Shown in pieces: positions 19,139 to 19,609 of a stretch of 25,410 bases of DNA. Made by a program: the position numbers and the translations under genes. Under the pieces are notes generated by a model. It did no database searches and was not told the DNA's origin. It was given only the letters and a program-made list of their open reading frames with translations. The first letter of the stretch is position 1; each line of letters opens with the position of its first letter. The stretch comes from a virus, in UHGV virus genome UHGV-0121369. One strand, 5' to 3'.

Positions 19139-19609
19139 ATGACCCAGCATATTGGCGTAAAACTGATTAACGCCTTTCTGATGACGAGACAGGCATATAA
19201 CGATTTTCGTGGCTGGCAGCTTCCTGCCGGAGAAAACGGCGAGGATGAAGGCTATCTGGTTGAATATCTTGATGGCGGAAAACCTAACACCGATCGCTTT
19301 GATGGCTACGTTAGCTGGAGTCCAAAAGAAGTATTCGAAAAGGCTTATCGTCCGGTATCAGGGCTAAGTTTCGGCCTTGCCATTGAAGCGCTCAAGTTGG
19401 GGAATAAAGTTGCCCGTGCTGGCTGGAATGGTAAGGGGATGTATCTGTTCATTATCCAGCAGAATGCTTGGGGGTTTGAGTGTGACCTGGACGGAGTTAA
19501 TGGCCTTGTGACGCTGCCATGCATTTGCATGAAGACAGCGGACGATAAATTAGTACCGTGGCTGGCTAGTCAGACTGATGTTCTGTCCGAAGACTGGCAA
19601 ATCATTTAA
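19139..19609 (+). CDS. DUF2829-like protein (Tad2-like fold candidate) with an N-terminal extension
   Basis: 156 aa; C-terminal half [33 protein letters not shown] fits the F..AL.ALK.G.KV.R..W..K signature I associate with DUF2829; located after the lysis cassette. Confidence 0.55.
   Translation: [156 protein letters not shown]

What the first reader, a model, noticed from the sequence alone, without database searches (positions are those of the whole stretch)
19139..19609. DUF2829-like (Tad2-like) protein with N-terminal extension immediately after the lysis cassette: candidate anti-defence sponge
Seen in sequence: residues about 85-125 ([31 protein letters not shown]) fit the compact signature I associate with DUF2829, preceded by an unrelated roughly 80-aa N-terminal region. 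Established knowledge: some DUF2829 proteins (Tad2) sequester Thoeris signalling nucleotides, and related sponges can bind other cyclic nucleotide immune signals. The gene sits in the accessory slot between Rz/Rz1 and cos, and a hairpin follows it (about 19626-19647). Inference: possible anti-defence function; DUF2829 is widespread, so function is not assured.
Basis: partly seen in the sequence, partly recalled or inferred. Interest (0 to 1): 0.55.

Follow-up and report, generated by a model that had tools for sequence, protein, structure and literature searches.

The report
Two-domain Tad2 anti-defence sponge gene
This prophage gene encodes a genuine member of the Tad2 family of phage proteins that soak up bacterial immune alarm molecules; the gene itself is ordinary, but its N-terminal half is an uncharacterised module that phages repeatedly fuse to four different kinds of such sponges.

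Summary
Window 19139-19609 (+) is a 156-aa ORF. Residues 77-156 match Pfam PF11195 (Tad2-like) at E = 2.8e-26, match solved Tad2 structures by sequence (E about 1e-16) and by predicted fold, and keep 8 of the 10 residues that contact 1''-3' gcADPR in SPO1 Tad2. The most likely function is a sponge for Thoeris (TIR-made) ADP-ribose signals. None of this was tested experimentally here.

This part is not new. RefSeq annotates the identical gene as a DUF2829 protein. An allele in phage Kapi1 has already been proposed in print to be Tad2-like, and it is the most highly expressed prophage gene in lysogeny.

The added result concerns residues 1-74, which are not a spacer. They form a well-conserved beta-rich domain with no Pfam, NCBIfam or PDB sequence match. 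It is found in at least 1418 protein clusters and at least 587 viral contigs. It occurs fused to Tad2, Sequestin, Acb4 or RyR-Tad sponge domains, and also alone. It is homologous to the 'unknown-function' dimerising N-domain of RyR Tad gp68. The same residues are conserved whatever the partner, which suggests a function of its own; that function is unknown.

The gene lies in a 565-bp cassette that the related phage mEp213 lacks.

The parts
19054..19618 (+). Accessory cassette (upstream element plus gene) in the slot between Rz and cos
   Evidence: Phage mEp213 matches the window up to 19053 (Rz, 85% identity) and again from 19619 (99.7% identity). In between it has 161 bp where the window has 565 bp. 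The same cassette is present in E. coli ET245 and in phages Louie and Kapi1.
19091..19117 (+). Terminator-like hairpin followed by TTTTTATT, directly upstream of the gene
   Evidence: It travels with the gene in four genomic contexts, and the stem differs between them while remaining pairable (GCCTCGC/GCGGGGC in ET245 and Louie; CCTCGC/GCGGGG in Kapi1). It is energetically weak in this window, and its function is not established. The scan found no sigma-70 consensus promoter upstream of the gene.
19139..19609 (+). CDS of 156 aa: N-domain plus Tad2-like domain (stop codon 19607-19609)
   Evidence: It matches phrog_872 over its full length at E = 9e-67. It is 100% identical to WP_057696179.1, annotated 'DUF2829 domain-containing protein', in E. 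coli ET245.
19139..19360 (+). N-terminal domain, residues 1-74: beta-beta-alpha-beta-beta-alpha fold, in no curated family
19361..19606 (+). Tad2-like (DUF2829) domain, residues 75-156
   Evidence: PF11195 at E = 2.8e-26. PDB sequence hits to 8SME, 8WJE, 9EIB, 8KBI and 8WJD. Foldseek probability 1.00 to Tad2 structures. The aligned pocket residues are W96 N97 M131 T133 D135 V139 W141 S144 T146 D147.
19457..19519 (+). Hypervariable loop (residues 107-127) between the second and third beta strands of the Tad2 domain
   Evidence: Mean pairwise identity is 0.16, against about 0.7 for the rest of the protein, and length ranges from 18 to 38 aa among 52 homologues. This corresponds to the 'insertion domain' that forms the cyclic-dinucleotide pocket in HgmTad2.
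19626..19647 (.). Stable hairpin downstream of the gene, at the right-hand junction of the cassette
   Evidence: It has no U-tract on the + strand. It is shared with mEp213 (which has no gene) and with Kapi1 and ET245 (which have the gene).

Best explanation
The gene encodes a two-domain phage immune-evasion protein carried as a small accessory cassette after the lysis genes of a lambdoid (phi80/HK225-like) prophage.

Residues 75-156 are a true Tad2-family domain. By analogy with SPO1 Tad2, four copies would assemble into a tetramer. Pockets at the subunit interfaces would bind and sequester the ADP-ribose-derived alarm molecule (1''-3' gcADPR, also called 3'cADPR) made by the TIR protein ThsB of Thoeris systems. 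The effector ThsA would then never be activated and the phage could replicate. The fold, family membership and pocket residues are shown here. Tetramer formation, ligand identity and Thoeris inhibition are inferred.

Residues 1-74 are a separate, autonomously conserved beta-rich module. It is the same kind of domain that forms a strand-swapped dimer at the N-terminus of the RyR Tad sponge. It most likely contributes dimerisation or higher-order assembly. It may have a further activity of its own that is not yet known.
For: Tad2 domain:
- Pfam PF11195 match at 92.3 bits, E = 2.8e-26.
- phmmer matches to SPO1 Tad2, ModTad2, HgmTad2 and SptTad2 at E = 1e-16 to 1e-13.
- AF2 model pLDDT 90.9. Foldseek probability 1.00 and TM (target-normalised) 0.74-0.85 to 8SMF, 9EIB and 8V3E.
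- The published SPO1 contact residues are W25 N26 I63 T65 D67 H71 W73 S76 T78 D79. They align to W96 N97 M131 T133 D135 V139 W141 S144 T146 D147, so 8 of 10 are identical. The numbering check reproduced all ten SPO1 residues.
- The HgmTad2 mutants that lose gcADPR binding (W21A/N22A; S90A/T92A/D93A) fall in the two motifs, WN and SxTD, that are intact here.
- Four of 5 diverse Tad2 homologues tested inhibited Thoeris. About 1% of Tad2 proteins are predicted to have a non-functional gcADPR site.

Context:
- The gene is a discrete cassette that mEp213 lacks.
- The Kapi1 allele sits in the same position after Rz and its N-domain is 98.7% identical. It is reported as the most highly expressed Kapi1 gene in lysogeny and is hypothesised there to be Tad2-like.

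N-domain:
- In 52 homologues its mean pairwise identity is 0.73, the same as the Tad2 core.
- hhalign gives probability 95.4% to the gp68 N-domain. That domain is a domain-swapped dimer in the crystal.
- A census of 150 representative proteins gave 45 N-domain-Tad2, 20 N-domain-Sequestin, 7 Acb4-N-domain-Sequestin, 4 N-domain-Acb4, 8 N-domain alone and 30 with unknown partners. One is an N-domain-RyR fusion.
- The same roughly 25 residues are conserved in every architecture class.
Against: - No experiment on this protein, or on any N-domain-Tad2 fusion, was found in the literature searched.
- Two contact positions differ from SPO1 Tad2: H71 to V139 (a water-mediated contact) and I63 to M131.
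- Tad2 homologues differ in ligand (His-ADPR, N7-cADPR, cUMP/cCMP, cyclic dinucleotides), so the exact ligand cannot be read from sequence.
- Oligomeric state could not be modelled here. A 74-aa domain attached directly to helix alpha1, which mediates tetramerisation in SPO1 Tad2, could alter assembly.
- An N-terminal 'head' domain of a different fold blocks one activity of another Tad2-like protein, pdAcrIIA7.
- The isolated gp68 N-domain showed no anti-Thoeris-I activity.
- Whether the host of this prophage, or its relatives, carry Thoeris is unknown. The Kapi1 host MP1 does not.
Confidence: 0.68

Rival explanations
1. It is a Tad2-family sponge, but for a different immune signal than 3'cADPR: His-ADPR (type II Thoeris), N7-cADPR (type IV Thoeris) or cUMP/cCMP (Pycsar), alone or in addition.
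For: Among 18 Tad2 homologues tested, at least one inhibited each of CBASS, Pycsar and Thoeris types I, II and IV, and many inhibited more than one system. The query is 39% identical to ModTad2, which binds His-ADPR, and 47% to SPO1 Tad2. Two pocket positions differ from SPO1. The loop 107-127 is hypervariable in the family.
Against: The canonical gcADPR-contact residues are nearly all retained. The determinants of the alternative specificities could not be mapped here, because no residue lists or sequences were available.
Confidence: 0.2
2. The N-terminal domain is itself an anti-defence effector, making the protein a dual inhibitor like the published Acb4-Tad2 and Tad2-Sequestin fusions. It could be an unrecognised sponge for another signal, or a binder of a defence protein as Tad3-Tad6 bind ThsB.
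For: It is fused to four experimentally validated sponge families and also occurs as a stand-alone ORF. This is the same 'fused to known sponges' logic that led to the discovery of Sequestin. That search went through Pfam, and this domain has no Pfam family, so it would have been missed. Conservation is independent of the partner: about 25 near-invariant residues, including K8 R17 Y20 N21 W26 E32 D36 Y43 N50 Y57 W60. The loops RGWxLPxxENGxDEG and DGGKPN are invariant in the canonical form. In the alignment with gp68 these two loops are largely not conserved or fall in gaps.
Against: The only tested relative, gp68_N, had no activity against type I Thoeris. The domain is net acidic (8 K+R against 11 D+E), whereas known sponge pockets are positively charged. 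No pocket or oligomer could be modelled here. Fusion to sponges would equally be expected of a generic oligomerisation module.
Confidence: 0.3
3. It is an AcrIIA7-type anti-CRISPR that binds tracrRNA and blocks Cas9. The homologues in phages Louie and Huey are annotated this way.
For: HgmTad2/AcrIIA7 and pdAcrIIA7 are sequence relatives (E about 2e-14). A 2026 paper reports tracrRNA binding by head-less AcrIIA7. The Louie and Huey genes are annotated 'anti-CRISPR protein'.
Against: Of the five basic groove residues named for pdAcrIIA7, K58 and K71 are kept (K86, K99). K66, whose K66W mutant is reported to have lost sgRNA binding, is alanine here (A94). K93 and R101 lie in an insertion this protein lacks. 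Full-length pdAcrIIA7 with its N-terminal head domain was inactive. Another laboratory found no Cas9 inhibition by HgmTad2. From my own knowledge, E. coli carries type I and not type II CRISPR-Cas, so there is no tracrRNA target in this host.
Confidence: 0.03
4. It is a lysogeny-expressed gene whose main role is in the lysogen rather than in lytic immune evasion. It could buffer a host nucleotide signal, or pre-empt host TIR signalling so that induction succeeds.
For: The Kapi1 allele is the most highly expressed prophage gene under all conditions tested, in a host without Thoeris. The gene has cassette structure with its own flanking hairpins. HgmTad2 co-purifies with c-di-GMP from E. coli.
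Against: The short loop argues against an HgmTad2-type c-di-GMP pocket. No promoter was identified here. The expression data are for a different allele, of 173 aa with a long insertion.
Confidence: 0.1

Closest known systems
SPO1 Tad2 (Gp34.65; PDB 8SME/8SMF/8SMG, 8WJE)
   Same: Same Pfam family. It is 44-48% identical over about 82 residues and has the same predicted fold. Eight of the 10 gcADPR-contact residues are identical, and the beta2-beta3 loop is similarly short (21 aa here, 24 in SPO1).
   Different: SPO1 Tad2 is an 89-aa single-domain protein of a Bacillus myovirus. This protein has an extra conserved 74-aa N-terminal domain and sits in an enterobacterial lambdoid prophage. It has V139 in place of H71 and M131 in place of I63.
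HgmTad2 / AcrIIA7 (PDB 8KBI-8KBM) and SptTad2 (8WJD)
   Same: Tad2 core with the conserved gcADPR motifs WN and SxTD.
   Different: These have a 35-41-aa insertion that forms a second pocket for cGG and cGAMP. The loop here is 21 aa, so that pocket is not expected.
RyR Tad (gp68 of Pectobacterium phage vB_PatP_CB1; bioRxiv 10.64898/2026.06.04.730250)
   Same: Its N-terminal domain is homologous to residues 1-72 here (hhalign probability 95.4%, 32% identity). Shared motifs are KL..A.PMT, EGYLV.Y and SWSP..VF. The overall plan is also the same: an N-domain followed by a gcADPR-sponge domain.
   Different: Its sponge domain is an all-helical RyR Repeat12-like fold (PF02026), not Tad2. The gp68 N-domain is divergent: the loops that are invariant in the canonical form (RGWxLP...ENGxDEG, DGGKPN) are largely not conserved or fall in gaps in the alignment.
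Published sponge-sponge fusions (Acb4-Tad2 of Pasteurella phage Pm86; Tad2-Sequestin; Acb4-Sequestin gp59 of phage Ab09)
   Same: Small phage proteins built by joining modules that each oligomerise. The N-domain found here occurs inside such fusions, for example Acb4-N-domain-Sequestin in P0240 and P0264 and N-domain-Tad2-Sequestin in P0124.
   Different: In those fusions both modules are known sponges. Here the second module has no known activity.
Kapi1_043 (Escherichia phage vB_EcoP_Kapi1, MT813197 17438-17959)
   Same: Same locus after Rz, with an N-domain 98.7% identical and the same upstream element. It has already been hypothesised to be a Tad2-like anti-defence protein and is highly expressed in lysogeny.
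   Different: It is 173 aa, with a 38-aa insertion in the Tad2 domain. Its C-terminal domain is only 54-59% identical to this one.

Membership tests
Tad2 / DUF2829 (Pfam PF11195) | Profile match above the curated gathering score | tested here: met
   92.3 bits against a cut-off of 25, E = 2.8e-26, covering profile positions 2-73 of 73.
Tad2 / DUF2829 (Pfam PF11195) | [quoted passage not shown] | tested here: met
   In the AF2 model (pLDDT 90.9) the order of elements is H78-86, E91-93, E102-106, E128-132, E138-140, H145-149, E153-155. Foldseek probability is 1.00 and target-normalised TM 0.74-0.85 to SPO1 and Myroides Tad2 structures.
Tad2 / DUF2829 (Pfam PF11195) | gcADPR pocket residues of SPO1 Tad2: W25 N26 I63 T65 D67 H71 W73 S76 T78 D79 | tested here: met
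   Eight of 10 are identical (W96 N97 T133 D135 W141 S144 T146 D147). I63 is replaced by M131 and H71 by V139. W96, N97, W141 and D147 are invariant in 52 homologues.
Tad2 / DUF2829 (Pfam PF11195) | Homotetramer with ligand pockets at protomer interfaces | not testable with these tools
   Only monomer prediction was available, and no coordinates are returned.
Tad2 / DUF2829 (Pfam PF11195) | Binds and sequesters a Thoeris signal and rescues phage from Thoeris | not testable with these tools
   This needs experiments. No published test of an N-domain-Tad2 protein was found.
HgmTad2-type dual sponge (gcADPR plus cyclic dinucleotides) | Insertion domain of 35-41 residues between beta2 and beta5 carrying the cyclic-dinucleotide pocket (R31, S47, F70, N85 in HgmTad2) | tested here: not met
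   The loop is 21 residues (107-127), against 41 in HgmTad2 and 24 in SPO1.
AcrIIA7 (tracrRNA-binding anti-CRISPR) | Basic groove residues K58, K66, K71, K93, R101 of pdAcrIIA7, and activity only without an N-terminal head domain | tested here: not met
   K58 aligns to K86 and K71 to K99, but K66 aligns to A94. K93 and R101 fall in an insertion that is absent here. This protein also carries an N-terminal domain.
N-terminal domain of RyR Tad gp68 (unnamed family) | Sequence homology to gp68 residues 1-65 | tested here: met
   hhalign probability 95.4%, E = 1.8e-8, 63 aligned columns. BLASTP E = 8e-5. Foldseek matches the Yersinia phage TG1 RyR-domain protein at E = 3.6e-4. P0138 joins a canonical N-domain (65% identical to ours) to a RyR domain.
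N-terminal domain of RyR Tad gp68 (unnamed family) | Strand-swapped dimer forming a five-stranded sheet | not testable with these tools
   The monomer model has four clear strands and two helices. The gp68 crystal structure is not in the PDB copy searched.
Known sponge families as the identity of the N-domain (Tad1, Acb2, Acb4/PF13876, Sequestin/PF21825, Lockin, TadIV-1) | Sequence or fold similarity to a member | tested here: not met
Tad3-Tad8 (direct binders of ThsB/ThsA) as the identity of the N-domain | Homology to Tad3-Tad8 | not tested
   The primary paper and its sequences are not in the library. These proteins are only mentioned.

The most novel reading that the evidence does not exclude
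The 74-aa N-terminal domain is an unrecognised, widespread anti-defence module in its own right. It would be either a new sponge family for an immune signal not yet assigned to any sponge, or a direct inhibitor of a defence protein. Phages would combine it with Tad2, Acb4, Sequestin and RyR sponges to build multi-target inhibitors. In the enterobacterial prophage locus the N-domain stays constant while the Tad2 specificity module is swapped.
Probability: 0.3. Interest if true: 0.75.

Novelty: new variant of a known kind. Interest (0 to 1): 0.45.

Why it matters
As a Tad2 homologue the gene adds little. It is one more example of a lambdoid prophage carrying an anti-Thoeris sponge in the slot after the lysis genes.

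The useful lead is the N-terminal domain. It has no curated family, is present in well over a thousand protein clusters and hundreds of viral contigs, and is joined to all of Tad2, Acb4, Sequestin and RyR-Tad. The same guilt-by-fusion reasoning recently uncovered Sequestin. That search went through Pfam and could not see this domain.

If the domain has its own target, it would add a family to the short list of phage immune-signal inhibitors, and could point to a signal or defence protein not yet linked to evasion. If it is only an assembly module, it still shows how phages build multivalent sponges. It also gives a sequence handle for finding new sponge domains among its roughly 30% of partners that have no known family.

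Tried and rejected
- N-domain against Pfam (E up to 10), NCBIfam, PADLOC, and PDB by phmmer and by profile: nothing significant.
- The afdb50 fold library was unavailable.
- Supplementary tables of the two Sorek-lab sponge papers are not held. I therefore could not check whether any tested Tad2 homologue carries the N-domain.
- I first took phages mEp213 and mEp043 to carry the gene, because the region matched at 98.5%. Local alignment showed that they match only the flanks and lack the cassette.
- I first judged the N-domain to be more conserved than the Tad2 domain, from the list of invariant columns. Pairwise identities show the two are equally conserved, 0.73 against 0.72 and 0.67.
- The sigma-70 scan found no promoter upstream of the gene, so the promoter behind the lysogenic expression reported for the Kapi1 allele remains unidentified.
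- The downstream hairpin as a terminator of this gene: not supported. It has no U-tract and is also present where the gene is absent.
- PDB 6E3C is named in one paper as a domain excluded from Tad2 sets, and I could not identify it. A fusion protein with an Acb4 domain matched 9E4W, not 6E3C.
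Full report
**1. The observation**

The window holds an ATG-initiated ORF at 19139-19609 on the + strand. It encodes 156 aa and has an AGG 7 nt upstream of the start. It follows a lambda-type lysis cassette: holin, lysozyme at 18156-18596, Rz at 18593-19060, and an embedded Rz1 lipoprotein frame at 18816-19007. It precedes a Nu1-like small terminase at 21136. The window as a whole is a mosaic lambdoid phage, closest to phi80 and HK225. 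The quoted motif lies at residues 76-106. The Tad2-like domain spans residues 77-156.

**2. The C-terminal half is a Tad2-family domain**

- Pfam PF11195 ('Thoeris anti-defense 2-like domain', formerly DUF2829) matches residues 77-156 over the full profile, at 92.3 bits against a cut-off of 25, E = 2.8e-26.
- phmmer against PDB sequences finds SPO1 Tad2 (8SME, 8WJE; E = 1e-16), Myroides ModTad2 (9EIB, 8V3E), HgmTad2/AcrIIA7 (8KBI), SptTad2 (8WJD) and pdAcrIIA7 (9KZR).
- An AlphaFold2 model built on 52 homologues has mean pLDDT 90.9.
- The C-terminal half of that model superposes on Tad2 crystal structures with Foldseek probability 1.00 and target-normalised TM of 0.74-0.85.

**3. Pocket residues**

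Yirmiya et al. list the SPO1 Tad2 residues that contact 1''-3' gcADPR or its ordered waters: W25, N26, I63, T65, D67, H71, W73, S76, T78 and D79.

I transferred these through the HMMER alignment. An offset of one residue between chain index and native numbering reproduced all ten SPO1 identities exactly. The equivalent residues here are W96, N97, M131, T133, D135, V139, W141, S144, T146 and D147. Eight are identical, one is a conservative change, and the water-mediated His is lost. W96, N97, W141 and D147 are invariant in 52 homologues.

The HgmTad2 mutants that lose gcADPR binding (W21A/N22A and S90A/T92A/D93A) fall in the same two motifs, which are intact here.

The second pocket of HgmTad2 and SptTad2, which binds cyclic dinucleotides, depends on a 35-41-residue insertion. 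The corresponding loop here (residues 107-127) is 21 residues, similar to SPO1 Tad2 at 24. A CBASS-signal pocket of that type is therefore not expected.

In the family this loop is hypervariable. Its mean pairwise identity is 0.16 against about 0.7 elsewhere, and its length ranges from 18 to 38 residues.

**4. What is already known about this gene**

- The identical protein (WP_057696179.1) is annotated 'DUF2829 domain-containing protein' in a prophage of E. coli ET245, in the same position after the lysis genes.
- Phages Louie and Huey carry it annotated as 'anti-CRISPR protein', a label carried over from AcrIIA7.
- Phage Kapi1 carries an allele, Kapi1_043 (173 aa), at the same place. Its N-terminal 76 residues are 98.7% identical.
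- A 2026 transcriptome paper reports Kapi1_043 as the most highly expressed Kapi1 gene in lysogeny, and proposes that it is a Tad2-like anti-defence protein.

**5. The gene is a cassette**

Phage mEp213 matches the window through Rz up to 19053, and again from 19619 at 99.7% identity. It has 161 bp where the window has 565 bp.

About 50 bp of upstream sequence travels with the gene in the window, ET245, Louie and Kapi1. This stretch includes a hairpin with differing but still pairable stems, followed by TTTTTATT.

The downstream hairpin at 19626-19647 is stable. It has no U-tract, and it occurs both with and without the gene. It looks like a module junction rather than this gene's terminator.

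In 80 IMG/VR loci, an Rz homologue ends within 400 nt upstream in 25.

**6. The N-terminal half is a distinct, conserved, mobile domain**

Residues 1-74 fold confidently (pLDDT 90) as beta-beta-alpha-beta-beta-alpha. The domain is as conserved as the Tad2 core, with mean pairwise identity 0.73 and 27 invariant positions in 52 homologues.

An exhaustive HMMER search with the domain alone found 1418 clusters at 50% identity with E up to 0.001. The domain lies at the N-terminus, in the middle, at the C-terminus, or makes up the whole protein. More than 587 IMG/VR viral contigs and 133 GenBank phage records encode it. These include N4-like coliphages, Vibrio, Pseudomonas and Acinetobacter phages and crAssphages.

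**7. Its partners are sponges**

Pfam scans of the 150 best representatives found three recurrent partner families:

| Pfam family | Identity | Number of the 150 |
|---|---|---|
| PF11195 | Tad2 | 55 |
| PF21825 | crAss001_48 | 38 |
| PF13876 | Phage_gp49_66 | 18 |

Recent work shows that PF13876 is the anti-CBASS sponge Acb4 and PF21825 is the anti-Thoeris sponge Sequestin. One of the Acb4 partners matches the Acb4 structure 9E4W.

A local domain census of the same 150 proteins gave the following main architectures; mixed forms make up the rest, for example N-domain-Tad2-Sequestin and X-N-domain-Tad2.

| Architecture | Count |
|---|---|
| N-domain-Tad2 | 45 |
| N-domain-unknown partner | 30 |
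| N-domain-Sequestin | 20 |
| N-domain alone | 8 |
| Acb4-N-domain-Sequestin | 7 |
| N-domain-Acb4 | 4 |

One representative (P0138) joins a canonical N-domain to a RyR-type sponge domain. In Aeromonas phage Avpx2 a stand-alone N-domain ORF overlaps by 4 nt a 71-aa ORF that belongs to no family.

**8. Link to a published structure**

A June 2026 preprint describes RyR Tad, gp68 of Pectobacterium phage CB1. It is a two-domain gcADPR sponge. [quoted passage not shown] That domain forms a strand-swapped dimer in the crystal, and on its own showed no activity against type I Thoeris.

I fetched gp68. Its residues 1-65 are homologous to the domain here: hhalign probability 95.4%, E = 1.8e-8, with shared motifs KL..A.PMT, EGYLV.Y and SWSP..VF. 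Foldseek against viral models independently found the related Yersinia phage RyR-domain protein.

The domain has therefore been seen before, but it has been neither named nor characterised. Its wide association with Tad2, Acb4 and Sequestin is not described in any of the papers I could search.

**9. Is the N-domain only an assembly module?**

Its identity to the query is about 0.6 whatever the partner. The same roughly 25 residues are at least 90% conserved in Tad2 fusions, Sequestin fusions, Acb4 fusions, fusions with unknown partners and stand-alone forms. They include K8, R17, Y20, N21, W26, P29, E32, D36, Y43, N50, Y57, W60 and F66. That argues for a partner-independent function rather than an interface that co-evolves with Tad2.

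The loops RGWxLPxxENGxDEG and DGGKPN are invariant in the canonical form. In the alignment with gp68 they are largely not conserved or fall in gaps. The negative result for gp68_N therefore may not transfer to this domain.

Three points argue against a sponge role:

- The domain is net acidic, whereas known sponge pockets are basic.
- No oligomer or pocket could be modelled with the tools available.
- Generic dimerisation would also explain the fusions to proteins that work as oligomers.

I therefore treat 'dimerising accessory module' as the default. I rate 'autonomous anti-defence activity' as a rival at about 0.3.

**10. Domain swapping at the prophage locus**

Among 80 IMG/VR loci, N-domains 97-99% identical to ours are joined to C-terminal domains that are only 37-59% identical to ours. 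The main types are:

- a common 159-aa type with an SPO1-like loop and an altered pocket (LKNSQNRLATWVPSIGD);
- the 173-aa Kapi1 type with a long insertion.

Loci whose N-domains are somewhat less similar (86-93% identical) also carry a 154-155-aa type (PYPNGA.VPWAPSQTD).

The same pattern appears in E. coli genomes. Forty-five of 5426 genomes match, but most match only the first 252 nt. The constant N-domain combined with a swappable Tad2 module fits diversification of ligand specificity. Our allele is a rare type that keeps the canonical pocket.

**11. Rival functions**

The AcrIIA7 reading is unlikely.

- One study reports tracrRNA binding by head-less AcrIIA7 through the basic residues K58, K66, K71, K93 and R101. 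The full-length protein with its 48-aa head domain was inactive.
- Here K66 is alanine, and K93 and R101 lie in an insertion that is absent.
- Another laboratory found no Cas9 inhibition by HgmTad2.
- From my own knowledge, E. coli has no type II CRISPR-Cas.

A different ligand specificity (His-ADPR, N7-cADPR or Pycsar signals) remains possible, given the functional spread of Tad2 homologues.

**12. Verdict**

The finding is real and correctly interpreted. As stated, it is an ordinary member of a known and already annotated family. What lifts it above routine is the N-terminal domain. It is an uncurated, very widespread module that acts as a hub for fusions with four validated sponge families, and its own role is open.

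Noticed in passing
IMG/VR loci L008-L087 (match at about 3001-3228 of each); window 19361-19606: N-domains 97-99% identical to the window's are joined to Tad2 domains only 37-59% identical to it. At least four sharply different C-terminal types occur across the 80 loci. This looks like intragenic module swapping. The commonest type (159 aa) has an altered pocket (KNSQN...SIGD instead of KTADD...SQTD).
   Followed up: partly
Proteins P0121-P0270, for example P0153, P0209 and P0244 residues about 73 to the end: About 30% of proteins carrying the N-domain have partner regions with no Pfam family. These partners are very diverse: 57 BLAST singletons or clusters among 59 regions. By the same fusion logic they are candidate new sponge or anti-defence domains. 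Some may be frameshift artefacts.
   Followed up: partly
P0163 (354 aa): The N-domain (2-75) and a Tad2 domain (264-353) are separated by HNH_3 and AP2 domains. This looks like a homing endonuclease inserted within or fused into the gene.
   Followed up: no
L005 (Aeromonas phage Avpx2) 2468-2689 and 2686-2901: A stand-alone N-domain ORF (73 aa) overlaps by 4 nt a downstream 71-aa ORF that has no Pfam or PHROG family. It may be a split two-gene version of the fusion.
   Followed up: partly
window 19656-19705: Seen by eye: two similar short palindrome-containing elements, ATATCCCCGCAAGCGGATAATATGG and TTATCCCCTGCGGGGTATAAATAGG, lie just downstream of the junction hairpin. They could be a protein-binding site or a pair of small hairpins.
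   Followed up: no
window 19734-19916 (+) and 19852-20112 (-): Two convergent ORFs overlap each other. Each matches a PHROG of unknown function strongly (phrog_28630 at E = 1e-40; phrog_21164 at E = 8e-45). Both are shared with mEp213.
   Followed up: partly
window 20378-20845 (+): This 155-aa ORF matches only positions 132-285 of the 335-position profile phrog_16910 (E = 1e-103). It may be a truncated or modular version of a longer accessory protein, and it has no Pfam family.
   Followed up: no
L006 (Escherichia phage Bp4) 2974-3465: In N4-like coliphages an N-domain-Tad2 gene sits next to the virion RNA polymerase, at the position where phage N4 has gp49 (Acb4). This lies inside the 'anti-signalling hotspot' described for N4-like phages.
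   Followed up: partly
L002 (phage Louie) 3400-3870; phage Huey: The same gene is annotated 'anti-CRISPR protein' in recent phage records. The label is carried over from AcrIIA7 and is probably misleading for coliphages.
   Followed up: yes
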